Assembly: GCA_050011995.1 (NCBI GenBank)
Contig: JBEKIA010000002.1
Coordinates: 486-64,485 of the forward strand
Source of the DNA: Verrucomicrobiota bacterium
GTDB lineage: Bacteria; Verrucomicrobiota; Verrucomicrobiia; Limisphaerales; Palsa-1400
DNA: 64,000 bases
Reading direction: 5' to 3'
Shown here: piece by piece, positions 30,580-46,969 of the stretch
How positions within the stretch are numbered: the stretch's first letter is position 1
Layout: every line of letters begins with the position of its first letter
Notes under the pieces: generated by a model
The model's database searches: none
Told to the model about the DNA's origin: nothing
What the model saw: the letters and a program-made list of their open reading frames with translations, nothing else
Program-made: the position numbers and the translations under genes

Positions 30580-30626
30580 TGTAGCGTCGAGCCTGTGGCT
30601 CGACCTCGGCGCACATCCCTGTGCCG
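30580..30626. repeat. Dispersed hairpin element, family C (copy 1)
   Basis: tgtagcgtcgagcctgtggctcgacctcggcgcacatccctgtgccg contains the hairpin GTCGAGCC-tgt-GGCTCGAC. Related copies lie at 35126-35168 (same orientation) and 51972-52010 (inverted). Confidence 0.85.
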
Positions 30627-30771
30627 CATTTGGCAAAGGCCAGTTTGAAAGCGGCGTGGCAGCAAAGGTGTTGCGTGAATTTGCGCAAGACCCGTTTCTG
30701 TATCTGGATGAGGCGGAGAAAAAGAAGTTCTTCGGCGTTTCCAGTGGATCTGATCGGGCAACGGCAATTTC

Positions 30772-30937
30772 GGGGAGCGCGTGCGTCTCGCGCGCAGTGT
30801 TTGGCGACCCGCCAAACACAGACCGGACGGCCTGCTGTTTGAACGCGGCCCATCCGAAGAAGAATCCAGGGGCAAGAACCGGCGAAGAAGTGGGGCGCGA
30901 GACGCGCCCCACGGCGACCGGGACGGTCGCGCTCCCC
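30772..30937. repeat. 166-bp MITE-like element with 10-bp terminal inverted repeats
   Basis: Termini GGGGAGCGCG (30772-30781) and CGCGCTCCCC (30928-30937). Internal perfect hairpins gtgtttggcg-accc-gccaaacac and gtggggcgcg-aga-cgcgccccac. Confidence 0.6.
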
Positions 30938-30994
30938 AATCCTTGAGGGCTTGCCCCGGGATCGACTGAAAATGTCGGGCAACCGAAAAAGAAG

Positions 30995-31432
30995 ATGCTG
31001 GCGGCGCATTCGGCTTTGTTGCGGGAATTCACGCAGTTGGCGTTTGATGAGTCGGCGGAAGCGCGTTGGCAGGAATCCCGGCCAACGGAAGCGGACATTG
31101 ATGTGGGGCCTGCGACACGAACGGATTTGCAAAGCGATTTGATTGAAGCGTTGCGGAATCCATTTCAATTGGTGGGAGAGCAAATACGGCGATTGATGGG
31201 CCGTTATCTCTGTGCGAACACGGCCCCGGAGAAGCGGCGGTATCTGCGCAGGAGCCAACTGCGCTCGGAAGATTTCACGGCCAAGTTGATTTGCAACGTC
31301 CACTTTTGGATTGAACGCGTGCCGGAATTGATCGGTTTGTACGACAATATCGCAATCGCACACCGGAATTCCGGGATTGTGCGCGTCAGCCTTCGTGGTG
31401 CGCTGCTTTCTCGCCCAATTTTGCCCGCTTAA
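30995..31432 (+). CDS. Hypothetical protein or gene remnant
   Basis: 145-aa ORF with ordinary composition (..LIEALRNPFQLVGEQIRRLMGRYL..NVHFWIERVPELIGLYDN..). The same frame is open from 30656 except for one TGA at 30944. No family recognised. Overlaps the 3' end of the convergent DUF2971 gene. Confidence 0.25.
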   Translation: MLAAHSALLREFTQLAFDESAEARWQESRPTEADIDVGPATRTDLQSDLIEALRNPFQLVGEQIRRLMGRYLCANTAPEKRRYLRRSQLRSEDFTAKLICNVHFWIERVPELIGLYDNIAIAHRNSGIVRVSLRGALLSRPILPA

Positions 31433-32069
31433 ACTTCCCAATCCAATCGGGATGCTTTATAATCCTGGAAAGATTGACCTTAGCCTTGACCTTGAGGACC
31501 CCTTTCAAGAAACATTCAATTGTTCTAAACAAATGAACTGGCATTTGTGGGCTTAATGTTATTCTCTTAATCACATTAAGATCGTCAATACTGATCTCGA
31601 AAGATTTTGCTCGTCTCTTTCCTATGCAAATGACTCGAAATTCATTTTCGAATTTATAAGGATGCCGCTTTAGAAATGGAAATCTGCAAACACAATCAAC
31701 TTTCACCTCTTCGATTGTATTGTAGTTCACTTCTTCAAATCTCACTCCATCACTTTTGTGCGCCAAGAATAATTTCTCGAGTTTCGCTCTATCGAACTCA
31801 ATACAACATCCGCTAATCCCATTGGCATACGCCTTCCAGTGGTGAATCGTTTCGTGCCCAATGAGAAAACACAGCACGAAGAGTTTTACACGCTTCGCGT
31901 TCTGATAGATTTTCAGTATCTCCACGTCATTTTTGTCTTCCCAAAACTTTGGATCCGAAAAGACAAGGCGTCTTTTTATTAGCATATCCATCAAGTGCGG
32001 AAGCGTTGTGAACCTGTTTAGCTTATTGGAGGAGTCCTCAGATTCACTGAGGCAATCTTGGCTTTTCAT
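31386..32069 (-). CDS. DUF2971-like protein
   Basis: 227 aa in an AT-rich region. HHWKAYANGISGCCIEFD and FPFLKRHPYKFENEFRVI resemble the DUF2971 pattern (W..Y....G.CI.F ... E.E.R) as I remember it. Confidence 0.6.
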   Translation of the reverse strand: MKSQDCLSESEDSSNKLNRFTTLPHLMDMLIKRRLVFSDPKFWEDKNDVEILKIYQNAKRVKLFVLCFLIGHETIHHWKAYANGISGCCIEFDRAKLEKLFLAHKSDGVRFEEVNYNTIEEVKVDCVCRFPFLKRHPYKFENEFRVICIGKRRAKSFEISIDDLNVIKRITLSPQMPVHLFRTIECFLKGVLKVKAKVNLSRIIKHPDWIGKFKRAKLGEKAAHHEG

Positions 32070-32165
32070 AGTGGGATAGACAACTTGCGATTTGATTTGT
32101 TAAGTTGCGGTTTCGTCGTTGGCAATTTATGCGTGAGCAGATTAAGCTTAACAGACCTGTTTCCG

Positions 32166-33335
32166 TTACGGAGCCACTTGGAGTCGGAAGTAGAGTTGGT
32201 TCCAATCGGCCACGTTAAAGTATTGAGGGTATGGCATTGCATAATTTGTGGCTGTGAACGGTGCGCCTTGGTTTGTCCAGGTGTTCAGATCGTGTGAAAC
32301 TTGTAATTGGTAATTTGTGCCACTGTATAGGTTTGAGAAATCCGGCTGGACCGCTTTAAGTAGAGATATTGACGGTGTTACGGGGAGTTGGATTGTCCAG
32401 ATGCCTCCCTTATAGACACAAGATAGCAATTCGCCGCCGTTCGCTGAAAAGGCTTCGACTCCGTTGGGTATGGGGCCAGTCGAATACCAAGAGGCGCCCG
32501 AATTGGTCGAAATATAGACCCCAATAAATTGTGCATCAGCACTGCCAACTGACAGAGCCAAATGGCTTCCATCCGCCGAAGAAGCTACCCAAGCCGCATT
32601 AGTGCCTTGCGGCAAGCTGTTCGGCGAGGTCCATGTGGCACCAGCATCGGAGGAGAGGTAAACGGACTGGCCCATGGCCAAAAACTTGGTTCCATCTGCC
32701 GAAGACGCAACAGAGGCCCAATAGGCTGGGTTCAAGCCAATGTTGGTCCCCAGTTTCCAAGTGCCTCCTGAGTTCGTTGAGATGTATACGTTGCCGCTGT
32801 ATCGGGTGCCTGCTACCAAGTTGCTTCCGTTCGCCGAACAGGCGATTGAACAGCACTGATTAAAGGGCGCACTTGAGAGCGTCCATGTGGTTCCAGAATT
32901 TGTTGAGACGTAAACGGATGAACCTCCGGCGAACAATTGGCTGCCATCGGCGGATGATGCGATGGCGTACCATGAAGACGTAATTGCGCTGGACTGGGTC
33001 CAATTGCCTCCCGCATTGGTGGAGGTGTAAATCCCCCCGAGATAGACGGTCGCCGCCAAATGGGTTCCGTCGGCCGAGGAGGCGACGCAATTCCAGGTTG
33101 CATTGGGCGCATTATTCGAAGTCCAAGTGGTGCCTGAATTGGTCGAGGTATAAATAACCCCGATATTCCCGTTATTGTTGTCGGCCACTGCCACAAGTTT
33201 ACTGCCATCAGCCGATGAGGCGATGCATTGCCAATGTTGGTTGGGTGCGCTGGTCTGGATCCACATTTGCGCCTCGGATTCTGGCGTCAAACCGCAAGCT
33301 CCGAGGAACAATGTAGCCAATATAATGAGCTTCAT
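32166..33335 (-). CDS. Secreted beta-propeller protein with Asp-box-like repeats
   Basis: Lipoprotein-like signal MKLIILATLFLGACG. At least 7 repeats of W..(I/V)ASSADG..L.A.....(I/V)Y.STNSG.TW. Confidence 0.85.
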   Translation of the reverse strand: MKLIILATLFLGACGLTPESEAQMWIQTSAPNQHWQCIASSADGSKLVAVADNNNGNIGVIYTSTNSGTTWTSNNAPNATWNCVASSADGTHLAATVYLGGIYTSTNAGGNWTQSSAITSSWYAIASSADGSQLFAGGSSVYVSTNSGTTWTLSSAPFNQCCSIACSANGSNLVAGTRYSGNVYISTNSGGTWKLGTNIGLNPAYWASVASSADGTKFLAMGQSVYLSSDAGATWTSPNSLPQGTNAAWVASSADGSHLALSVGSADAQFIGVYISTNSGASWYSTGPIPNGVEAFSANGGELLSCVYKGGIWTIQLPVTPSISLLKAVQPDFSNLYSGTNYQLQVSHDLNTWTNQGAPFTATNYAMPYPQYFNVADWNQLYFRLQVAP

Positions 33336-33369
33336 TATGTGTCCTTATGTATGAATTGTTGATATTATT

Positions 33370-33759
33370 TTGAGCCGTCAAAGATTACGGGGCGATAGTA
33401 TTCCGTCCGTCAAGAAGCGCAAGCTTAAAACCGGCAATATATTGCCTTTCCGCGAATGCCAACATGGTCTCGTGAAGAGAAGCGATTTGGCGCAATATCT
33501 AGGCATGATTGTGAGAAAGCACAGGATGCAAAAAAGGATCACTCAGGAGGCATTGAGCGAGCGGGCGGATATTGATGTACGAATGGTTCGCCTCATTGAA
33601 ACAAAGGGCCAGAACTTCAGTGTGAACGTGGCTGAATGCGTCGCCCGGGCGCTTGGTGTTCCGCTGTCTCAGATGATTCGTGAAGCGGAAGATTTGAGGC
33701 GCACACAGGAAAACACTAAAGGCAGATCGGGCGCGGTTGACGCTTTACCGCCGAAATAG
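33370..33759 (+). CDS. XRE-family helix-turn-helix transcriptional regulator
   Basis: IVRKHRMQKRITQEALSERADIDVRMVRLIETKGQNFSVNVAECVARALGVPLSQM is a Cro/C1 HTH. The start is uncertain: TTG 33370, GTG 33472 or ATG 33505. Confidence 0.8.
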   Translation: MSRQRLRGDSIPSVKKRKLKTGNILPFRECQHGLVKRSDLAQYLGMIVRKHRMQKRITQEALSERADIDVRMVRLIETKGQNFSVNVAECVARALGVPLSQMIREAEDLRRTQENTKGRSGAVDALPPK

Positions 33760-34072
33760 TGACGATGGGGGCCAGTCGGTCATCGTCGCAATTTGAAGGC
33801 GGCAAAAAACGTTGCGGCTCCAAAAGCGGCCTTTCCTCCCTGGCTTCAACTCCCTGGTGGTGATGGCGGTGGATTCCATGTTGCGAAGGGCAAACAGGGC
33901 GCAAGCTGGAATCCAGCGACTTCACGACCAGGCACTTGTCGGGGCGGCTTGTCCCGCCGCAGGCTTGGCGAAGGGGGAAGAGTTCGCGTGTTGGCATTCC
34001 GCCTTCGCCAGGCCTACGGACAGGGCGGGGAAAAGCTGCTGGAAACTACGGATCACGAAGAATTGTTCCGGC

Positions 34073-34381
34073 TTACAGGCCAAGCCAGTTGCGCACGCCT
34101 GCTTCAACCAAGGCCAGTTGTTGGACTGTCAATCGTCCGAGGAATCGCTCCGCCTTTGCCGCCGAAATTGTAATGGGATTTTGGACCAGGAAGGCCCCGG
34201 ACTGGAGAAAAGGGACATTGAATCGAATTTCTAGATCGGAACCGCGCAATGACGTGGTGTGGGGAATTACCGTGATAAGCGCACGGTCTTGGTCTTTGAA
34301 GGAGCGATTGAGAACGAGGGCAGGCCGAACTTTCTGAATCATTCCTAAATCCACCAGCCAAACTTCACCGCGACTGGGCAC
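34073..34381 (-). CDS. mazF: Type II toxin, PemK/MazF family endoribonuclease
   Basis: VPSRGEVWLVDLGMIQKVRPALVLNRSF...VIPHTTSLRG... is the MazF pattern. GTG 34381 is preferred (17-nt overlap with the antitoxin gene). The ORF-track start is 34408. Confidence 0.85.
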   Translation of the reverse strand: MPSRGEVWLVDLGMIQKVRPALVLNRSFKDQDRALITVIPHTTSLRGSDLEIRFNVPFLQSGAFLVQNPITISAAKAERFLGRLTVQQLALVEAGVRNWLGL

Positions 34382-34562
34382 GGCTTTCCTCCTCGTCCAG
34401 CAGCGCAAATGTTTCAGCGGCGATTGCGGTTAGGTCTTCATCTGACAGGGGCCCATAGTCCACCGGGGTCACCTTCCGGGCAATCGCTTCATAGACGGCC
34501 AATTGCTCGACTTGCGGCAAGCTGTTGAATTCCTGGATGACGGCCAAGGCTCTATTGCTCAT
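34365..34562 (-). CDS. Antitoxin partner of MazF (small acidic protein)
   Basis: ORF 34365..34754 trimmed to ATG 34562: MSNRALAVIQEFNSLPQVEQLAVYEAIARKVTPVDYGPLSDEDLTAIAAETFALLDEEESRAQSR. Directly upstream of and overlapping mazF. Confidence 0.7.
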   Translation of the reverse strand: MSNRALAVIQEFNSLPQVEQLAVYEAIARKVTPVDYGPLSDEDLTAIAAETFALLDEEESRAQSR

Positions 34563-34907
34563 GTAATGGAGGTTAAATGACGTTCGGTGAAATTGCAAGC
34601 CGGTTTGAACTCGGTTGAAATTCAGGAAAATGCCTTTTTCAGACGGACAGGACCTTCGCCAGTATTTTGCCTGCGGCAATGCGTCAGAGTCGCTTCGTTT
34701 GGCGAGGATTTTTACCACGGATGGCATCCCGATTCCATCGGGAGATGAAGGCAATGCAGAATGCAGAGTGCGCAGCGCAGAGTTTTTAACCGTGAAATCC
34801 GTACCACTATAGTGAATAATCGCGCATTTCCGACAAGATTCTCCGAATCGCCTTCCCGAATGGCAAATGACAAATGCTCAATGACAAATTCTCAATTCAG
34901 ACTCATC

Positions 34908-34979
34908 CCTTTGGTTGCGGCTGGCCGCGCTGGGAAATCTGTGGTTCAGTTCCTTTGGTTGCGGCTGGGCGCGCTGGGG
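34908..34979. repeat. Imperfect 44-bp direct repeat (x2)
   Basis: cctttggttgcggctggccgcgctggg (34908-34934) and cctttggttgcggctgggcgcgctgggg (34952-34979). Preceded by the AT-rich caaatg-type motif region at 34861-34900. Confidence 0.8.
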
Positions 34980-35125
34980 TCTGTGCTGGTTATTGTCAGC
35001 AAATCTCTGAGTCCTGTGCGTCTGCCATTTCGCCACTCGGGCAACCGTTCGTGCCGCCGTGGCATCCTGCCAGAACCAGGCCTGCGGCACAAGGGCGGCG
35101 AATTTGCCGTGGTGCCTTTATCCAG

Positions 35126-35168
35126 TGTAGAGTCGAGCCTGCGGCTCGACCTCGGCGCACAGCGCCGA
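35126..35168. repeat. Dispersed hairpin element, family C (copy 2)
   Basis: tgtagagtcgagcctgcggctcgacctcggcgcacagcgccga contains the hairpins GTCGAGCC-tgc-GGCTCGAC and TCGGCGC-aca-GCGCCGA. Confidence 0.85.
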
Positions 35169-35241
35169 CACTGCAAAATTGAATAATGGCGCTGCTTGGA
35201 ATCCGCTTCTTTGGCGCGGGGATTTGCGGTAGAGTCCGGCC

Positions 35242-35919
35242 ATGCGCGTTTTGGTTGTGGAAGACGAAAGGAAAACGGCGTCGTTCATCCGCTCCGCCCT
35301 GGAGGCGGAGCATATCGCCGTGGACCTCTGCCACAACGGCCCCCAGGCCCTGGCCGGCGCGATGGGCGTGACCTTCGACGCCATCGTCCTGGACATCATG
35401 CTGCCGGGGCAGGACGGGCTGAGCGTGCTGCGGCAGTTGCGCCAGCGCGGCAACCGCACGCCGGTCTTGCTGCTCTCGGCGCGCGGCGAAGTCAATGACC
35501 GGGTGGAAGGATTGAACATCGGCGCCGACGATTATCTGGCCAAGCCGTTTGTCCTGGCCGAATTGGTCGCGCGCCTGCGCGCCCTGGTCCGCCGCGGCAA
35601 CGAACCCGTGCCCCGGCTCCTGCGCGTGGCCGACCTGACGCTGGACACCCTCACGCGCCAGGCCCGGCGCGGCGAAACGGCCTTCGATCTGGCCGCGCGC
35701 GAATACCGGCTGCTGGAGTTCCTCATGCGCTCGGCCGGACGCGTTTGCGGACGAATGACCATTCTGGAAAAGGTGTGGGACTATAACTTCGATCCGGGAA
35801 CCAATATCGTGGACGTTTATGTGCGGCGGCTGCGGGAGAAGATTGACGACGGCTTCGAGCACAAGCTCCTCCATACCGTGCGCGGCGCCGGCTATGTGTT
35901 GAAGGAGGGGAAGGAGTAA
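35242..35919 (+). CDS. OmpR-family response regulator (CusR/CopR-like)
   Basis: MRVLVVEDE...DAIVLDIMLPGQDG (phospho-acceptor Asp)...ADDYLAKPF, then a winged-helix output domain (EYRLLEFLM...HTVRGAGYVL). Confidence 0.93.
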   Translation: MRVLVVEDERKTASFIRSALEAEHIAVDLCHNGPQALAGAMGVTFDAIVLDIMLPGQDGLSVLRQLRQRGNRTPVLLLSARGEVNDRVEGLNIGADDYLAKPFVLAELVARLRALVRRGNEPVPRLLRVADLTLDTLTRQARRGETAFDLAAREYRLLEFLMRSAGRVCGRMTILEKVWDYNFDPGTNIVDVYVRRLREKIDDGFEHKLLHTVRGAGYVLKEGKE

Positions 35920-35922
35920 ACT

Positions 35923-37011
35923 ATGACCATTCGCGCCCGCCTGACTTTTTGGTACGCCGGCATCATGTTCGCCTCGTTGCTGACGATGGGCGTCCTTTCC
36001 TACCGGCACTTCGTAACCATCCCCGCCCGCCGCGCGGTTGGGGGAGGGCAGTCCGCGGATGAAGTGGCCGACATGGCGATGGATTTCCGCGAAGTCGCCC
36101 GGATCGTGCTGTGGGGCGGCGCGCCGGCGCTGCTCCTGGCGCTGGGGGGCGGCTGGTGGCTCACCCGCAAGGCTCTGGCCCCCGTCTCCGCCCTGACCCA
36201 GGCCGCCGCCCGCCTCAACGAACGCAGCCTGCACGAACAATTGCCCCGCTCCGGCAACGGCGACGAACTGGACCAGTTGACCGATGTTTTCAACGCCATG
36301 ACCGCCCGCCTCGACGGCTCTTTTCAGCGCATGCGCGAATTCACCCTCCACGCCTCGCACGAATTGAAAACCCCGCTGACCGTCATCCGCGGCGAGTTGG
36401 AAACCGCGCTCCAGGACGAAAAAAGCGGCGCGCCGCCCCCGCCCGCCCGCCTCCTGAGCCAGATGGATGAGATTGACCGGCTGGCCAAAATTGTGGACGG
36501 CCTGACGCTTCTGACCAAGGCCGACGCCGGACAGGTCGCCCTCCACCCCGAACCGCTCCAGTGGGACGAACTGGTGCGGGAAACTTTCGCCGACGCCAAC
36601 ATCCTGGCCCAGCCGTCGGGCGTCCGCGTCACCCTTTCCGACTGCCAGGAAGCGGCCATCCGGGGCGACCGCCACCGCCTGCGGCAGTTGCTCCTGAATT
36701 TGACGGACAATGCGGTCAAGTACAATATCCCCGGCGGCACGGTGGCGATTTCGCTGAAACGGGCCGGGGCGGCGGCCGAGTTGCGCATCGCCAACACCGG
36801 CCCGGGCCTGGCGGCCGAATTGCAGCCGCGCGTCTTCGAGCGCTTTTTTCGCGGCGACGCCAGCCACAACCGCGAGGTGGAAGGCTGCGGGCTGGGCTTG
36901 AGCATTGCCCAATGGATAGTCCGCGCCCACGGCGGGACCATCCAGTTCGCCTCCCAGCCCGGCCAACTGACGACCGTGACGGTGCGCCTTCCCCTGGCGG
37001 GCGCCGGCTGA
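35923..37011 (+). CDS. Sensor histidine kinase (2 TM, HAMP, HisKA, HATPase_c)
   Basis: H-box FTLHASHELKTPLTVI, N-box LLNLTDNAVKYN, G-boxes NTGPGL and GCGLGLSIA. Its last 175 nt belong to a 186-bp direct repeat (see 36837). Confidence 0.92.
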   Translation: MTIRARLTFWYAGIMFASLLTMGVLSYRHFVTIPARRAVGGGQSADEVADMAMDFREVARIVLWGGAPALLLALGGGWWLTRKALAPVSALTQAAARLNERSLHEQLPRSGNGDELDQLTDVFNAMTARLDGSFQRMREFTLHASHELKTPLTVIRGELETALQDEKSGAPPPPARLLSQMDEIDRLAKIVDGLTLLTKADAGQVALHPEPLQWDELVRETFADANILAQPSGVRVTLSDCQEAAIRGDRHRLRQLLLNLTDNAVKYNIPGGTVAISLKRAGAAAELRIANTGPGLAAELQPRVFERFFRGDASHNREVEGCGLGLSIAQWIVRAHGGTIQFASQPGQLTTVTVRLPLAGAG

Positions 37012-37022
37012 AAAGCGAACAG
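36837..37022 (+). repeat. 186-bp direct repeat, left copy (3' end of HK gene + 11 nt)
   Basis: Aligns with 38087-38272 at a constant offset of 1250 bp with 6 mismatches. Five are synonymous third-codon positions and one is Arg->His. Confidence 0.95.
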
Positions 37023-37056
37023 CAGCGCCCTGGGGAGCATACGCGCCTCGCGTGTG

Positions 37057-37084
37057 CTGACCGGCGCCCTCGCCGGTCAGTTTT
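37057..37084 (+). terminator. Rho-independent terminator after the HK gene
   Basis: ctgaccggcg-ccct-cgccggtcag (10-bp perfect stem) followed by tttt. Confidence 0.7.
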
Positions 37085-37172
37085 CGTGTCACCCCCTCCG
37101 GTCGCGACTTTTCCATGCCGAAATGTTGTCGGCGCGTGCCAAAGTTGATCGAGCCTCAGCCGGAATTCGCGG

Positions 37173-37200
37173 TTGACTTCCGGGCGGGATTCCTTATCTT
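37173..37200 (+). promoter_or_regulatory. Putative sigma70-type promoter for vapBC (near-leaderless)
   Basis: TTGACT (37173-37178), 16-nt spacer, TATCTT (37195-37200). The ATG at 37207 lies 6 nt downstream. Confidence 0.4.
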
Positions 37201-37206
37201 GGCTCC

Positions 37207-37440
37207 ATGAGCACGGTTGTTACGGAAGACGGCAAAATCAGTATCCCGCAGGAAGTGCGGGAGGCCCTTGGACTTGGTCCGGGAACCGTGCTCGAAGTGC
37301 AAAGCCAGGCGGGCACCCTCGTCGCGTGGAAAAAAGTGGAGCCGGACGTGTTTGAGAAATGGCGCGGTCGCGGCCAACTGCCCGTCGGAACCGGCCCCGA
37401 CGATTATTTGCGGCTGATTCGCGATGGTGACCGCCGTTGA
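37207..37440 (+). CDS. vapB: AbrB/MazE/SpoVT-fold antitoxin (VapB-type)
   Basis: MSTVVTEDGKISIPQEVREALGLGPGTVLEVQSQAGTLV is the SpoVT-AbrB swapped-hairpin motif. Overlaps the PIN gene by 17 nt. Confidence 0.85.
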   Translation: MSTVVTEDGKISIPQEVREALGLGPGTVLEVQSQAGTLVAWKKVEPDVFEKWRGRGQLPVGTGPDDYLRLIRDGDRR

Positions 37441-37840
37441 CACCTCTGTTCTTCTCGATGTCCTGCTGAACGACCCTCAGCACGCGCCGGCTTCCATTGC
37501 CGCTTTGCGAAGGGGATCAGTGGAAGGTTCGCTTATTCTTTGCGAAATCGTTCTTGCGGAACTCGCGCCCACTTTGGCCCCCGCCGAAATGCCGCAATTT
37601 CTTTCCGACTGGAATCTCACTTTTGTTCCTTCTTCGCAATCAAGCGCTATTCTTGCCGGTGAGATGTTTCGGACCTATTTGCGGCGCGGGGGCAAACGGA
37701 GCCGGGTTGTGCCCGACTTTCTCCTGGCCGCGCACGCCCAAATTCATGCCCAACGCCTCCTCGCTTGAGACCGCGGCTATTACCGGGATTACTTCAAGCA
37801 ACTGCAACTCTGGGACCCCAGCCCCAGCCCTAGCTCCTGA
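37424..37840 (+). pseudogene. vapC: PIN-domain VapC toxin interrupted by an in-frame TGA at 37766-37768
   Basis: MVTAVDTSVLLDVL...LAELA...VPDFLLAAHAQIHAQRLLA-[TGA]-DRGYYRDYFKQLQLWDP. The stop sits where VapC homologues have the Arg of the conserved LL(T)RD motif (CGA->TGA is one transition). The same frame continues to TGA 37838-37840. Confidence 0.7.
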
Positions 37841-38086
37841 TCTGGCGGCGCAGGCTCGTTGAGCGCAGGCCAAGCGGTGGAACTTCCGCCGGCGCGCTTG
37901 GCGCAATGGTGGGACAAGCCGGCGCGCGAGGAAAGGGAAAAGGCAAAGGCTCAACCCATAGTTTGGTCCTATCCGATTGATGCTCATCTCCAAAAAACCA
38001 CGTCAAAATGAACCAAACTGTGGGTTGACTTCTCTTTCCGTATCAATCCACGCAAAAACTATCCATAGTGAGGACGGACATCAGCG

Positions 38087-38272
38087 CGAGCGCTTTTTTC
38101 GCGGCGACGCCAGCCACAACCGCGAGGTGGAAGGCTGCGGGCTGGGCTTGAGCATTGCCCAATGGATAGTCCACGCCCACGGCGGGACCATCCAGTTCGC
38201 CTCCCAGCCCGGCCAACTGACAACGGTGACCGTCCGCCTCCCCCTGGCGGGCGCCGGCTGAAAAGCGAACAG
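38087..38272 (+). pseudogene. Orphan 3' fragment of a histidine-kinase gene (right copy of the 186-bp direct repeat)
   Basis: Encodes RFFRGDASHNREVEGCGLGLSIAQWIVHAHGGTIQFASQPGQLTTVTVRLPLAGAG*, identical to the HK C-terminus except R->H. The ORF-track entry 37977..38261 fuses it to unrelated upstream codons. Confidence 0.85.
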
Positions 38273-38317
38273 GATTCTTCACTTTCAAGAACAGTGTCGA
38301 AACGCGCCCCATTGGCG

Positions 38318-38341
38318 ACGGTCGCAGACCGCCGCTACAGG
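38318..38341. repeat. Dispersed element, family D (copy 3)
   Basis: gacggtcgcagaccgccgctacagg matches 1097-1121. Confidence 0.75.
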
Positions 38342-38462
38342 CGAGCGCATCCGTCCGGCTCTCGCCGGAGGAACCGGCGCTCCGATCTGTCAGGTCAGAG
38401 TCGCTCCTTTTCGCAAGGAGTTTGCCATCCCGATTCGGATCGGCAGCACAGGGATTCATAAC

Positions 38463-39225
38463 GCAAAGGCGCAAAGGCGGCGGCAAATTGAAAATTTACA
38501 ATTGCAAATTTTCAATTTGTTATTGTCTGGCGTCTTGGCGTCTTGGCGATAAAAGTCCTTTTATCCGTGAAATCTCCCGATCCGGAATCGGGATGGTTCC
38601 CCACTTCGCTTGCGGCGGGCCGCTCCGGGCGTTTTTCCGGTTCACTATGGGTTGGCAGGATGCGCAAGTGGCTAATGATGAGGGCCTTGGAAGAATTTGC
38701 CTAAATCCGCGTTTTTCTCTTGACTCTTCGCGCTTATATGCTAATCTTTTGTGCGTGACGATAGGTCGCAGAGGGCCGGGCGGCGGCGGGAAGAAGATCC
38801 CGTTGAGCAGGGCTTTCCCAGAGGTTCGGCTTTTCCAGCGGATTTCTCCAAAGACGCGCAACTTTAACGTTAAAGCCGCCAACCCCCCATTCGACCGAAT
38901 TCAAGCAGATTCAAGTGGATTCAAGCAAATTCAACCCAAAAAGTATGGGAAAAACCATGAAAGATACCGCAGGCAATCCGCCATGAACTTGGGCCGCCAA
39001 GAAGCGCCAAAGGCGCAACCATCCGGAGTGGCTCACCGCGAAATACGCGAAATACGCGAAAGCAGAGTTGCCTGTGTTCGCGTTTTTCGCGTGGTTCGCG
39101 GTGAAGAAGCTTCATTTTTGAGCCTTTTGAGCCTTTTCGCGGCAAATCAATGGAAATATCTATCCATGAACCATTTACACGCCACACGGAGCTTTTCCGG
39201 TCAAGCCTAATCAAGCCTAATCAAG
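38463..39225. repeat. Non-coding region packed with short tandem duplications and small inverted repeats
   Basis: (gcaaaggc)x2 at 38463. 14-bp inverted arms caaattgaaaattt/aaattttcaatttg at 38484-38519. (gcgtcttg)x2 at 38529. (attcaagnnn)x4 at 38899-38938. (cgcgaaata)x2.5 at 39037-39062. (ccttttgag)x2 near 39115-39140. (aatcaagcct)x2 at 39198-39225. Confidence 0.8.
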
Positions 39226-40197: not shown

Positions 40198-40942
40198 ATG
40201 ACACGACGCCAAGCCATCAAAACCGCCGCCCTGGCCGCCGCCGCCGCCACCCTCGCGCCGCGTCGCGCCGCCGCCGCCGGCGCGCCGCTGGCCGGCCGCA
40301 TCCGCCATTCTGTCTGCCGCTGGTGCTATAAGCGCCATGATCACCGGAGTGCCGGGCGACATCCCCAAGGGATTGAACCGGGTGGAGAACCACGGCCCGA
40401 TCGCCGCGTTTTTCGAGAAAACGATTCCCCTGGTGGCGGAGGCGGGCTGCCCGAACCTGATCTGCTTTTCCGGCAACCGCCAGGGCATGAGCGATGAGCA
40501 GGGCCTGGAAAACTGCGCGGCGGGGTTGAAGCGTTTCATCGCTTTGGCCGAGAAAAGCAAAGTGACCGTTTGCATGGAACTGCTCAACAGCAAGGTCAAT
40601 CATCATGATTATATGTGTGATCATACCGCCTGGGGAGTGGAACTTTGCCGGCGGGTCGGCTCGGAACGCTTTAAGCTCCTCTACGACATCTACCACATGC
40701 AAATCATGGAAGGGGATGTCATCCACACCATCCAGGACAACCATCCGTTCATCGCCCACTACCACACCGGCGGCGTGCCGGGCCGCCACGAAATTGATGA
40801 GACCCAGGAACTGAATTATCCGGCCATCATGAAAGCCATCCTGGCCACCGGTTTTCAGGGCTTCGTCGCCCAGGAATTTGTGCCGCGCGGCTCCGATCCG
40901 CTCGCCTCCCTGGAGAAATGCGTCCGCCTTTGCGATGTTTGA
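40198..40942 (+). pseudogene. Hydroxypyruvate-isomerase-like TIM-barrel gene with internal out-of-frame deletion
   Basis: Frame A from ATG 40198 gives a Tat-type signal plus a conserved start (MTRRQAIKTAALAAAAATLAP...GRIRHSVCRWCYK). The rest of the protein (AM-ITGVPGDIPKGLNRVENH...YHMQIMEGDV...HYHTGGVPGRHEIDETQELNY) is in frame B (ORF 40337..40942). About 35-40 residues normally found between the two parts are missing. Confidence 0.6.
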
Positions 40943-45329: not shown

Positions 45330-46175
45330 TCAGGCAACTGGATGCCTCGCCATTTCGTCGGCCAATTCGCTGGAGAATTTGTTGGCCTCCTGTTCGGAGA
45401 TGAAATCCTTTTTGACCGGCATCTTGTGCAGGATGTTCAATGCCTTGCCGTAAGCGGGCCTTAGCCTCTCAATGCGCGGCTCACCAATCAGCATCCAAAT
45501 CCGAAACTTCTCCTCGGAATCCTTGAGGTTGGTCGCACGTCCGAGCCAGCGGTTCGCCTTATCGAGAATGCTTTCGGAGTCCAGGAGGTCCAGCGAAATG
45601 GGCTGGTACAAATTCCAAGTGGCATTACGCCAAGCGTGGTCAAATTCGTGGTCATAGTCTTTTGCCATAATGCGCTTGGGTTGCATCCGGGACAAAACCT
45701 GCTTCGATTCCAGTTCCTTGCGAAACACCTTCCAAACATCGTCGTCCTGACGGCTCGGCAACTGTTCCCGTTGCTCATATTTTTCCACCAGCCTGACATA
45801 AAGTTGTTCCAGGGTCGCTGCCGGGTCTTCCGTGAGCCCCCCGTTTGGTTCTGCCCATTGCAGCGCGCTGTCGTCGCGCGGCAGAATGCTGTACGCGATT
45901 TCCATTATGCTCTTGGGCTGTTCTGCAAGCGGCAATTCGCTGGTAATCCTCGATGCATGCTCCTCAAACCGCGCCTGAATATACCGCATGACCGAGCGCA
46001 AATGGTCCCCGTTCACGTCAAGGAACATCTTGCTCAAGCGGCCATAGCGCGGATTGCAGATGGCGCTGATGTATTTGGCTTCCGGCGCGTAAAGCGCGAC
46101 ACCCATGTTCACGAACTCGCCCGTGGCGATGTCGTGGACGTATCGGAGAACGGTGTAGGTAAATGTCGTTTTCAT
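45330..46175 (-). CDS. DUF3037 domain-containing protein
   Basis: N-terminus MKTTFTYTVLRYVHDIATGEFVNMGVALYAP matches the DUF3037 hallmark (Y.VLRYV.D...GE.VN.GV.L). Its ATG overlaps the upstream stop (ATGA). Confidence 0.8.
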   Translation of the reverse strand: MKTTFTYTVLRYVHDIATGEFVNMGVALYAPEAKYISAICNPRYGRLSKMFLDVNGDHLRSVMRYIQARFEEHASRITSELPLAEQPKSIMEIAYSILPRDDSALQWAEPNGGLTEDPAATLEQLYVRLVEKYEQREQLPSRQDDDVWKVFRKELESKQVLSRMQPKRIMAKDYDHEFDHAWRNATWNLYQPISLDLLDSESILDKANRWLGRATNLKDSEEKFRIWMLIGEPRIERLRPAYGKALNILHKMPVKKDFISEQEANKFSSELADEMARHPVA

Positions 46176-46969
46176 TGCAACAGGTGTTCAATTACCCCGA
46201 ACAATGCCGTGCGATTTTGCCGTGCTTTTCGCAGATAATCGGCAATTTGTTGGGCTGCTTTGCTGTCTGTACGCCATTCATTCGGCACGGCTTCAATATA
46301 CTCATCCAAACGGGCATCCGTCAAAGCATCCAACGCCCCGGTCAACCGGCTCCAATCGTGCTTGAGGCCGGCCAACTGCTGGAAAAAGACGTGTTGGCGC
46401 AGGAATTCCGTGCCCTGGCCAGTCCAGGGCGGCTGCCAGCCAATGACGCCCATCAAAAAGGAAAATGCCTGTTCATGGTCGCACAGGAAAATCTCGTCGT
46501 CGCTCCACAACAGATTCGGGTTGTCCCACCGCCGGTCTGGATTTTGAATCAACACGTCAAAGGCGAAAATCTCGGCGGCGAGCGGGCGAAGCAGAACCGG
46601 AATCGGTTTGTCCCTGGGCCATGTGCCGACACCTGCCGGGAGCTTCTGGCTGCCGAAATTCAACCCGGCGCTCTTCCTGGCGATTGCCGAAAGCTCCGCC
46701 TTTCCTTCGCCAACAATGAATTTTTGGGGAACTTCGACGATGAACGGTTTTGGGACAGGCAAATCGAGGTCATTGGCCAGCAGGGCCGCCATGAGTTCGC
46801 AAATCAGCCCGGTTTCTTTCGTCTCCATTCCGCCGCGCCATTTAATCACTACTTCACAATCGTTGCCGCGGGCGTTGGTGCAAAGCATAAGACAAGGTCT
46901 TGTCCGGCCCGATGATAAGGCTCGCAATACCGTGGCCGCTTGGATTCGTGGAATATGGATCGCGCTCAT
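46172..46969 (-). CDS. HipA-like (HipA_2-type) serine/threonine kinase family protein
   Basis: FAFDVLIQNPDRRWDNPNLLW...IFLCDHEQAFSF resembles the catalytic D..N / DH loop of short HipA-family kinases, which are commonly paired with DUF3037. Confidence 0.7.
   Translation of the reverse strand: MSAIHIPRIQAATVLRALSSGRTRPCLMLCTNARGNDCEVVIKWRGGMETKETGLICELMAALLANDLDLPVPKPFIVEVPQKFIVGEGKAELSAIARKSAGLNFGSQKLPAGVGTWPRDKPIPVLLRPLAAEIFAFDVLIQNPDRRWDNPNLLWSDDEIFLCDHEQAFSFLMGVIGWQPPWTGQGTEFLRQHVFFQQLAGLKHDWSRLTGALDALTDARLDEYIEAVPNEWRTDSKAAQQIADYLRKARQNRTALFGVIEHLLQ

What the first reader, a model, noticed from the sequence alone, without database searches (positions are those of the whole stretch)
36837..38272. 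vapBC cassette inserted at the 3' end of the histidine-kinase gene between 186-bp direct repeats that differ almost only at synonymous sites
36837-37022 (the last 175 nt of the HK gene plus 11 nt) recurs at 38087-38272, an offset of exactly 1250 bp. There are 6 mismatches: acg/aca, acc/acg, acg/acc, gtg/gtc and ctt/ctc are all third-position synonymous, and cgc/cac is Arg->His. That pattern is what two diverged functional alleles look like, not a recent duplication drifting neutrally. It fits an element that integrated into the 3' end of the HK gene while carrying a surrogate 3' end, leaving the displaced native end as an orphan fragment. The insert carries its own terminator (37057-37084), TTGACT-type promoter-like boxes (37173 and 38026) and vapBC, but no recombinase. 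It is either a very small integrative module or the residue of a larger island.
Basis: seen in the sequence. Interest (0 to 1): 0.6.

Follow-up and report, generated by a model that had tools for sequence, protein, structure and literature searches.

The report
Recombination scar around a vapBC cassette
A small, already broken toxin-antitoxin cassette sits behind a sensor-kinase gene between two copies of that gene's last 186 bases, and the evidence points to ordinary homologous recombination with a sister strain's DNA, not to a self-integrating mobile element.

Summary
Bases 36837-37022 recur at 38087-38272, 1250 bp apart, with 6 mismatches: 5 synonymous third-position changes and one Arg/His change. 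Eleven independent metagenome assemblies carry the same structure, so it is not an artefact. The two copies are diverged alleles. Copy B (the orphan) and the first ~12 nt after it match the consensus of orthologous kinase genes. Copy A's clustered synonymous states, and the terminator region after it (37023 to ~37134), are shared with a 95%-identical sister strain (L032) that has no vapBC. So the "surrogate" gene end is sister-strain chromosomal DNA, not part of a vapBC element. The vapBC core (~37137-37895) is a separate ~760-bp cassette, found at 84-94% identity in five unrelated contexts, never with a kinase fragment. No recombinase lies within 10 kb. vapC carries a CGA-to-TGA nonsense mutation that removes the fourth catalytic Asp. 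Only one junction is new (38086|38087). That is the pattern left when a circularised fragment integrates by one RecA crossover, as shown experimentally in E. coli. One 1373-bp contig closes into exactly a 1250-bp circle of insert plus repeat, an unexplained hint of a circular or tandem form. It is a neat natural example of a known process, of modest interest.

The parts
35242..35919 (+). OmpR-type response regulator (heavy-metal/efflux type), partner of the kinase
   Evidence: Pfam Response_reg plus Trans_reg_C. The best NCBIfam match is cztR_silR_copR, below its cutoff. Among strains it is a mosaic with 4-5% divergent tracts.
35923..37011 (+). Intact sensor histidine kinase (HAMP-HisKA-HATPase_c, 362 aa); its 3' end is repeat copy A
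   Evidence: Pfam. The RND-efflux/RR/HK synteny is conserved in orthologues.
36837..37022 (+). Repeat copy A: last 175 nt of the kinase gene (stop codon included) plus 11 nt; allele of the L032 type at the clustered synonymous sites, with a unique Arg
37023..37136 (+). U-left: native 3' flank of the kinase in the A-type haplotype, with an intrinsic terminator hairpin at 37056-37081
   Evidence: It is contiguous with the kinase in L032, which lacks vapBC. There are 2 mismatches in the first 65 nt, and homology fades by ~37134. The terminator scan is. L036 has a similar element after its kinase.
37137..37895 (+). vapBC cassette core: promoter/operator (TTGACT 37173, TATCTT ending at 37200), vapB 37207-37440, vapC from 37424 (original stop at 37838-37840), ~55 nt tail
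   Evidence: It is 84-94% identical in nucleotides to cassettes in five unrelated contexts: L023-26, L027-30, L031, L033 and L194-197. Homology is limited to this span.
37424..37768 (+). Truncated vapC (114 aa instead of 136); the TGA at 37766-37768 replaces the Arg codon of LLARDRGYY
   Evidence: Homologues are almost all 136 aa. The alignment shows loss of the nearly invariant D116 and of RDRGYYRDYF. The Pfam PIN match runs across the stop.
37896..38086 (+). U-right: ~190 bp of unique, apparently non-coding DNA of unknown origin, ending at the only novel junction (38086|38087)
   Evidence: There is no match in the window, in any fetched locus, or in plasmids or phages.
38087..38272 (+). Repeat copy B: orphan kinase 3' end (58 codons plus stop plus 11 nt) of the ancestral-type allele (His; ACC GTC ... 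CTC)
   Evidence: It hits only the C-terminal half of HATPase_c.
38273..38290 (+). Start of flank B: ancestral-type sequence that follows the kinase stop in orthologues (GAACAG|GATTCTTC...)
   Evidence: It is shared with L036, L039/L019, L022 and L100. Synteny to the methyltransferase and AP-endonuclease genes further downstream is kept in L019, L043, L052 and L114.

Best explanation
This is a recombination scar, not an active element. My reconstruction is as follows. A fragment of a sister strain's chromosome was taken up and circularised. It held the last 186 nt of that strain's kinase allele, the kinase's own terminator region, a vapBC cassette already sitting behind it, and ~190 bp more. 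The circle-closure joint is 38086|38087. The circle then integrated into the recipient by a single RecA-type crossover within the 186-nt homology, probably in the first 86 identical bases. A Campbell-type event of this kind duplicates the homologous segment on both sides of the insert. It leaves the kinase intact, now ending in the donor allele (copy A) followed by the donor's terminator. It pushes the recipient's own gene end (copy B) and native flank 1250 bp downstream as an orphan. The six differences are therefore inherited allelic differences. The composite was later passed among strains as a block. vapC has since been inactivated by a nonsense mutation, so at most the vapB repressor/antitoxin is still made.

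Shown: the repeat, the allele identities, the linkage of each copy to its flank, the independent cassette core, the vapC truncation and the absence of a nearby recombinase. Inferred: the circular intermediate, the crossover position and the direction of transfer.
For: (1) The repeat and its synonymous-biased mismatches are real.
(2) R(A) plus U-left is contiguous in L032, which has no vapBC, and L032 shares 4 of the 5 clustered synonymous states with copy A.
(3) Copy B's states and the first ~12 nt of its flank are the consensus of orthologues, and downstream synteny to the methyltransferase is ancestral.
(4) L032 and copy B both read GAACAGGA before diverging. So the right repeat end is a natural haplotype divergence point and only 38086|38087 is novel.
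(5) The vapBC core moves independently of any kinase fragment.
(6) No recombinase appears among the Pfam-annotated genes from -10 kb to +10 kb.
(7) In E. coli, DNA with one-sided homology mostly circularises and integrates by a recA-dependent single crossover, duplicating 109-950 bp of the homologous segment, whereas true HFIR gives deletions (PMC3240628).
(8) L101 is a closed 1250-bp path of insert plus one repeat with an exact 123-nt terminal overlap.
(9) The block 36472-38684 has 0.45 variable sites per kb among strains, against 40.8 per kb to the left and 3.9 per kb to the right. This fits recent spread as a unit.
Against: Neither parent was found. There is no strain of this lineage with the kinase joined directly to flank B (one search gave 0 hits), and none with vapBC behind the kinase but no orphan. 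The repeat in the L101 circle is copy-B type at all six sites. A simple excision or original circle with a crossover in the longest identical block would carry copy-A states, so a B-type circle needs a crossover in the last 32 nt or a secondary event. L032 is one short contig (3.6 kb), and what follows its U-left (a fused MFS/spermidine synthase gene) is not seen next to this kinase in any other relative. The origin of U-right is unknown. A linear-fragment event (HFIR) gives the same final sequence and cannot be excluded from sequence alone.
Confidence: 0.5

Rival explanations
1. Homology-facilitated illegitimate recombination of a linear fragment. A linear piece of sister-strain DNA (kinase ... 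copy A, terminator, vapBC, U-right) recombined homologously somewhere in the kinase or regulator genes. Its non-homologous right end was joined illegitimately to the recipient at the position equivalent to 36837, keeping the recipient's own gene end downstream.
For: It gives the same final sequence: one homologous exchange plus one illegitimate joint at 38086|38087, with the allele-flank linkages as observed. HFIR has been proposed for the displaced 3' regions of T6SS and Rhs loci (PMC5361080). The regulator and the 5' part of the kinase are visibly mosaic among strains, so homologous imports are frequent here.
Against: Experimentally, HFIR typically deletes recipient DNA. Duplications of the homologous segment were traced to circularised molecules integrating by a single crossover (PMC3240628). 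HFIR does not predict a closed 1250-bp form (L101). Microhomology at the joint cannot be assessed without the parent sequence.
Confidence: 0.22
2. One reading: a site-specific integrative module, or the residue of a larger island, that targets the 3' end of the kinase gene and carries a surrogate gene end in its attachment site. The integrase has since been lost.
For: Direct repeats made of the target gene's 3' end, with the displaced native end distal, are the classic look of such islands. The L101 circle carries a complete B-type repeat, which a crossover confined to the last 32 nt (a core site) would give. In L032 the same U-left start is followed by different DNA, as two islands sharing an end would show.
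Against: No recombinase gene lies inside the insert or within 10 kb. The insert is only 1064 bp. A U-left-like hairpin element follows the kinase in the more distant orthologue L036, behind an ancestral-type flank start, so it is native flank. L032's neighbouring gene is a housekeeping-type fused MFS/spermidine synthase, not island cargo. vapBC copies elsewhere carry no kinase fragment and no U-left. None of ~45 related kinase loci has any island bounded by kinase-end repeats.
Confidence: 0.1
3. Duplication in place within one genome (for example by template switching or unequal exchange). The six differences were added later by homologous import of a foreign allele patch into the functional copy, or most of the repeat was homogenised by gene conversion.
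For: The mismatches are strongly clustered, with 5 in 19 nt (p~0.001), and the other 167 nt differ at one site, which looks like a conversion or import patch. Allelic imports are common in this locus.
Against: A tandem duplication of repeat plus insert would leave a second insert copy, not flank B. Copy B's flank is the ancestral kinase flank, which an internal duplication does not explain unless the insert arrived between two pre-existing copies. The two different flanks each match a different natural haplotype.
Confidence: 0.1
4. Assembly artefact: two strain variants of the kinase 3' end stitched into one contig.
For: The data are metagenomic, and strain variants of this locus coexist in the same samples.
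Against: Eleven contigs from eleven samples, built by at least two assemblers, carry the identical two-copy structure with the same six differences. The copies share no 123-mer, so they cannot collapse or loop at the final k.
Confidence: 0.02

Closest known systems
Insertion-duplication by single crossover of a circularised non-replicating DNA fragment (Campbell-type integration; Amarir-Bouhram, Goin & Petit 2011, PMC3240628)
   Same: The insert is flanked by a direct duplication of the homologous segment (186 bp here, 109-950 bp in the experiments). There is one non-homologous closure joint, no dedicated recombinase, and the target gene is preserved when the homology includes its end.
   Different: This is a natural event in an uncultured peat Verrucomicrobiota population. 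The donor was a sister strain, so the two copies are allelic. The circular intermediate is inferred (L101 is only a hint), and RecA dependence is untested.
Homology-facilitated illegitimate recombination (de Vries & Wackernagel 2002; Prudhomme et al. 2002; Meier & Wackernagel 2003, as cited in PMC3240628 and PMC5361080)
   Same: Foreign DNA is acquired through one homologous anchor plus one illegitimate joint.
   Different: Classic HFIR replaces or deletes recipient DNA next to the anchor. Here the anchor segment is duplicated.
C-terminal displacement in Rhs, CdiA and T6SS effector loci, which leaves strings of orphan 3' regions (Jackson et al. 2009; Kirchberger et al. 2017, PMC5361080)
   Same: A new gene end arrives by recombination in the conserved upstream part of a gene, and the old 3' end survives downstream as an orphan that keeps a stretch of homology.
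   Different: The two ends here encode the same protein apart from one residue, so there is no functional diversification. The cargo is a toxin-antitoxin cassette, not a toxin/immunity pair.
Integrase-driven genomic islands at the 3' ends of tRNA, tmRNA or protein genes
   Same: Direct repeats made from the target gene's 3' end, with the gene restored by the proximal copy.
   Different: There is no integrase and no conserved element ends. The 'surrogate' end and its flank are ordinary chromosome in a sister strain.
Type II VapBC toxin-antitoxin modules (AbrB/MazE-fold antitoxin plus PIN-domain RNase)
   Same: The gene order, the 17-nt overlap, the autoregulated-looking promoter and the patchy distribution across unrelated chromosomal contexts.
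   Different: The toxin gene is truncated by a nonsense codon before the fourth catalytic Asp, in all strains that carry this locus.

Membership tests
Type II VapBC toxin-antitoxin module | Small antitoxin gene with a DNA-binding domain directly upstream of, and overlapping, the toxin gene | tested here: met
   vapB (37207-37440) hits PF04014 (E=1e-6) and TIGR01439 AbrB (E=1e-8). It overlaps vapC (from 37424) by 17 nt.
Type II VapBC toxin-antitoxin module | PIN-domain toxin | tested here: met
   PF01850 has E=1.7e-7 on the read-through sequence. NCBIfam VapC is the best hit but below its cutoff. There are 390 homologues, some named VapC family toxin by NCBI.
Type II VapBC toxin-antitoxin module | Complete set of conserved acidic active-site residues in a full-length (~136 aa) toxin | tested here: not met
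   The TGA at 37766-37768 ends the protein at 114 aa. D6, E46 and D98 are present. The nearly invariant D116 and the RDRGYYRDYF motif are lost.
Integrase-mediated island at a gene's 3' end | Flanking direct repeats derived from the target gene's 3' end | tested here: met
Integrase-mediated island at a gene's 3' end | Tyrosine or serine recombinase encoded in or next to the element | tested here: not met
   No recombinase Pfam family appears among the genes called from about -10 kb to +10 kb (L001/L009). The insert holds only vapBC.
Integrase-mediated island at a gene's 3' end | The surrogate gene end travels with the element and is absent from uninserted chromosomes | tested here: not met
   Copy-A-type end plus U-left is contiguous with the kinase in L032 without vapBC. 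Five other vapBC contexts lack any kinase fragment.
Integrase-mediated island at a gene's 3' end | Empty site in close relatives | tested here: inconclusive
   Orthologues at 72-92% aa identity have no insert and a single gene end. No empty site was found within the same lineage (0 hits).
Campbell-type single-crossover insertion-duplication | Insert bounded by a direct duplication of the segment homologous between donor and recipient | tested here: met
   The two 186-nt copies are 96.8% identical. Each is linked to a flank seen in a different natural haplotype.
Campbell-type single-crossover insertion-duplication | Exactly one non-homologous (closure) junction | tested here: met
   The right repeat end coincides with the natural divergence point of the two flank haplotypes (GAACAGGA shared by L032 and copy B). 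Only 38086|38087 has no counterpart elsewhere.
Campbell-type single-crossover insertion-duplication | Circular form of insert plus one repeat | tested here: inconclusive
   L101 closes into 1250 bp with a 123-nt terminal overlap. It is a single contig, its repeat is B-type, and a tandem array would look the same.
Campbell-type single-crossover insertion-duplication | RecA dependence | not testable with these tools
   This needs genetics in a cultivable host.
Homology-facilitated illegitimate recombination | Recipient DNA next to the anchor is replaced or deleted, with microhomology at the illegitimate joint | tested here: not met
   The anchor segment is duplicated, not deleted. Microhomology cannot be scored because the donor sequence beyond U-right is unknown.

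The most novel reading that the evidence does not exclude
The 1250-bp unit (a 186-nt kinase-end homology arm, terminator, vapBC and 190 bp) may behave as a recombinase-free, homology-addressed mini-element. It would pop out as a circle or amplify in tandem through its own repeats, then re-enter other strains' kinase alleles by RecA crossover without damaging the gene. That would explain the closed L101 contig and the near-zero diversity of the block across otherwise mosaic strains.
Probability: 0.12. Interest if true: 0.6.

Novelty: new member of a known kind. Interest (0 to 1): 0.3.

Why it matters
This is a clean natural record of how DNA with homology on one side only can enter a bacterial chromosome without any dedicated recombinase. 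It also shows that the same architecture as an integrase island (a gene end duplicated, with an orphan fragment downstream) can arise from plain homologous recombination. That is a useful caution for island-finding heuristics, and a documented field example of an outcome so far shown mainly in laboratory E. coli. It also shows a toxin-antitoxin cassette being carried passively and then decaying. If the circular or tandem form is real and recurrent, it would point to a very simple route for spreading small cassettes between strains.

Tried and rejected
- **Empty site:** an exact-anchor scan of metagenome contigs for unique kinase sequence, one repeat, then flank B gave 0 hits. A survey of 80 kinase-end loci found no empty site and no 'vapBC without orphan' parent in this lineage.
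- **L101-type junction elsewhere:** R(B) followed by U-left gave 0 hits in genome representatives and viral contigs, and appears only in L101 among 113 loci.
- **Plasmid or phage origin of the insert:** no match in either collection.
- **REP or MITE nature of the U-left hairpin:** it is single-copy in the 64-kb window (my first pattern was mis-specified), so I dropped this idea. No terminal inverted repeats bound the insert.
- **Extending L032 through its neighbouring gene:** Its homologues are ordinary fused MFS/spermidine synthases, and the exact protein occurs only on the same short contig.
- **tRNA target:** there are no tRNA genes in the window.
- **Kinase variant with His in place of Arg:** the exact look-up of the hypothetical variant was not processed.
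- **Microhomology at 38086|38087:** an 8-of-12 match after a 6-nt gap is not convincing in this GC-rich DNA.
- **Recombinases beyond +/-10 kb:** I did not scan the rest of the window.
Full report
**The observation**

The window holds two 186-nt direct copies, 36837-37022 and 38087-38272, exactly 1250 bp apart. They differ at six positions. One is a second-position change, CGC/CAC (Arg/His), at 36923. The other five (36972, 36975, 36981, 36984, 36990) are synonymous third-position changes. This gives dS=0.12, dN=0.008 and dN/dS=0.06. The chance that at least 5 of 6 random changes are synonymous is 0.005. Similarity ends abruptly outside both copies. Five of the six differences fall within 19 nt, which is itself non-random (p~0.001).

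Copy A is the last 175 nt (stop codon included) of an intact HAMP-HisKA-HATPase_c kinase gene (35923-37011) plus 11 nt. The kinase's OmpR-type partner lies at 35242-35919. Between the copies lie a hairpin terminator (37056-37081), vapB (37207-37440, AbrB/MazE fold) and a PIN-domain vapC starting at 37424.

The same two-copy structure, with the same six differences, is present in 11 contigs from 11 metagenomes built by different pipelines. The two copies share no 123-mer. An assembly artefact is therefore very unlikely.

**Organism and neighbourhood**

The locus belongs to an uncultured Verrucomicrobiota (Pedosphaera/Limisphaerales-like) population from peat. The nearest genome representative is 'Verrucomicrobiota bacterium SPRUCE 604', whose kinase is 87% identical. 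Orthologous loci keep an RND efflux operon plus regulator and kinase upstream. Several also keep a methyltransferase and an AP-endonuclease-family gene a few kb downstream. The DNA between the kinase and the methyltransferase differs in every lineage. Of about 45 related kinase loci examined, none outside the window's own lineage has vapBC or a second kinase end.

**Which copy is native**

- Copy B, the orphan, carries the states found in intact orthologous kinases. All have His at the replacement site. The string GTGACCGTCCGCCTCCCC is the consensus. The first ~12 nt after copy B (GAACAG|GATTCTTC) resemble the orthologues' flanks (GAACAGGATTCC, GAACAGGCTTCC, GAGCAGGGTTCC).
- Copy A carries derived states.
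- The decisive find is contig L032, from a strain whose kinase is 95.4% identical at the DNA level. It matches the window continuously from 36358 through copy A and on through 37023 to ~37087 (terminator included). Homology then fades and is gone by ~37134. L032 has no vapBC; a fused MFS/spermidine synthase gene follows.
- L032 shares four of the five clustered synonymous states with copy A.
- A more distant orthologue (L036) has an ancestral-type flank start followed by a similar hairpin element and its inverted partner, as in L032.

So the gene-attached copy and the terminator after it are ordinary chromosome of a sister haplotype, not part of a vapBC element. L032 and copy B both read GAACAGGA before they diverge. 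The right end of the repeat is therefore just the point where two natural flank haplotypes stop being alike. The only junction without a natural counterpart is 38086|38087.

**The cassette**

DNA homology to vapBC cassettes elsewhere is confined to ~37137-37895:

| Loci | Identity | Context |
|---|---|---|
| L023-26 | 84% | between a parA-like gene and a hibernation-factor gene |
| L027-30 | 91% | next to Kelch/NosD-like genes |
| L031 | 94% | short contig that begins inside vapB; a 449-aa gene follows |
| L033 | 91% | among small ORFs |
| L194-197 | 89% | beside a GH115 gene |

. None of these copies carries a kinase fragment or U-left. The conserved core starts ~70 bp before vapB with a TTGACT-16-TATCTT promoter inside a conserved block. 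It ends ~55 bp after the full-length vapC stop.

Homologues of VapC are almost all 136 aa. Here a TGA replaces the CGA Arg codon of LLARDRGYY, giving 114 aa and removing the nearly invariant D116 and the RDRGYYRDYF motif. The truncated form is the one found on 17 contigs. The ~190 bp between the cassette and copy B (U-right) matches nothing.

**Mechanism**

The final sequence needs one homologous exchange in the kinase and one non-homologous joint. No recombinase gene lies in the insert or within 10 kb.

Laboratory work in E. coli shows that DNA with homology at one end only is mostly circularised and then integrated by a recA-dependent single crossover. This produces duplications of 109-950 bp of the homologous segment. 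True homology-facilitated illegitimate recombination (HFIR) of the linear molecule gives deletions (PMC3240628).

The architecture here is that insertion-duplication. A crossover in the first 86 identical bases puts all six donor states in copy A (next to the donor's terminator) and all six recipient states in copy B (next to the recipient's flank), as observed. I therefore favour Campbell-type integration of a circularised sister-strain fragment (confidence 0.5). Linear HFIR is the main rival (0.22). A degraded integrase island (0.10), a duplication in place with later allele import (0.10) and an artefact (0.02) follow.

The nearest natural analogues are the orphan 3' regions left by C-terminal displacement in Rhs, CdiA and T6SS loci, for which HFIR has been proposed (PMC5361080).

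**An unexplained lead**

Contig L101 (Ga0187860_1094461, 1373 bp) equals window 37422-38272 followed directly by 37023-37544, with no mismatch. Its first and last 123 nt are identical, and to my knowledge 123 is the largest k in JGI's MEGAHIT settings. It is thus a closed 1250-bp path of the insert plus one repeat. Its R(B)-to-U-left junction exists in no other locus and cannot be built from k-mers of the window structure. So some molecules in that sample appear to carry a circle or a tandem array.

The repeat in it is copy-B type at all six sites. A crossover in the longest identical block would not give that; it needs a crossover in the last 32 nt or a secondary event. The reciprocal empty site was not found. 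This needs read-level data.

**Population picture**

Among strains that share the structure, the stretch 36472-38684 has one variable site in 2.2 kb. That compares with 40.8 per kb in the regulator and the 5' part of the kinase, and 3.9 per kb downstream. The composite is therefore young or has spread as a block. The strains also differ by a 4.5-kb indel upstream and a 0.7-kb deletion downstream.

**Verdict**

The proposed agent, a vapBC integrative module with a surrogate gene end, is not supported. This is a recombination scar with a decaying toxin-antitoxin passenger. It is a new example of known processes, and the L101 circle or tandem form is the only part that could make it more than that.

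Noticed in passing
L101 (Ga0187860_1094461), equivalent to window 37422-38272 plus 37023-37544: A 1373-bp contig with an exact 123-nt terminal overlap closes into a 1250-bp circle of insert plus one B-type repeat. Its junction is absent from every other locus. It could be a circle, a tandem array or a rare artefact.
   Followed up: partly
window 37766-37768: vapC is cut short by a CGA-to-TGA nonsense mutation (114 aa instead of 136). This version is on 17 contigs, so the toxin was inactivated before the locus spread. vapB remains intact.
   Followed up: yes
window 30615-35125: A 4.5-kb block holds a sortilin/BNR-like gene, an HTH gene and a PemK/MazF toxin (34073-34408) with a putative antitoxin. 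It is absent from strains L005, L011 and L015, so this is a second cassette-flux site just upstream of the regulator.
   Followed up: partly
window 35125-36471: The response regulator and the 5' part of the kinase are strongly mosaic among strains. Tracts are 4-5% divergent and shared in different combinations, which indicates frequent homologous imports.
   Followed up: partly
window 40210-40903 and ~40332: Strains L010, L011 and L013 lack ~690 bp covering most of the AP-endonuclease-family gene. L001 and others have 105 extra bases at ~40332, in a GC-rich CGCCGCC repeat region.
   Followed up: no
L008 (ERZ27250105 k141_532689), equivalent to window 37260-37818: This short contig has the identical kinase. 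It has 20 clustered SNPs in the 3' part of vapB and the start of vapC, and then an apparent 315-bp deletion inside vapC. It is either a second allele of the cassette at this site or a chimeric contig.
   Followed up: no
window 31187-31334 and 38565-38629: A repeated element of ~65-150 bp also abuts vapBC cassettes in other contexts: the right side in L194-197 and the left side in L033. It may be a small mobile or recombinogenic sequence associated with cassette borders.
   Followed up: no
window 39033-39104: A 33-nt inverted repeat, 85% complementary with a 6-nt loop, is built from CGCGAAATA heptamer-like units. It lies in the non-coding stretch before the methyltransferase gene.
   Followed up: no
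window ~45330-46890: A DUF3037 gene followed by a HipA_2-family gene (from the JGI Pfam calls on L001) adds another toxin-antitoxin-like pair. Relatives carry TacAT and ParE modules at equivalent variable spots.
   Followed up: no
L032 positions ~600-800 and L036 downstream of the kinase: The kinase in these relatives is followed by a pair of ~50-nt GC-rich elements in inverted orientation (GGGAGC...CGCGCC.CGCGTG...GGCGCCCTCGC). The window keeps only the first. They may form a bidirectional terminator or a recombination-prone palindrome at the breakpoint.
   Followed up: partly
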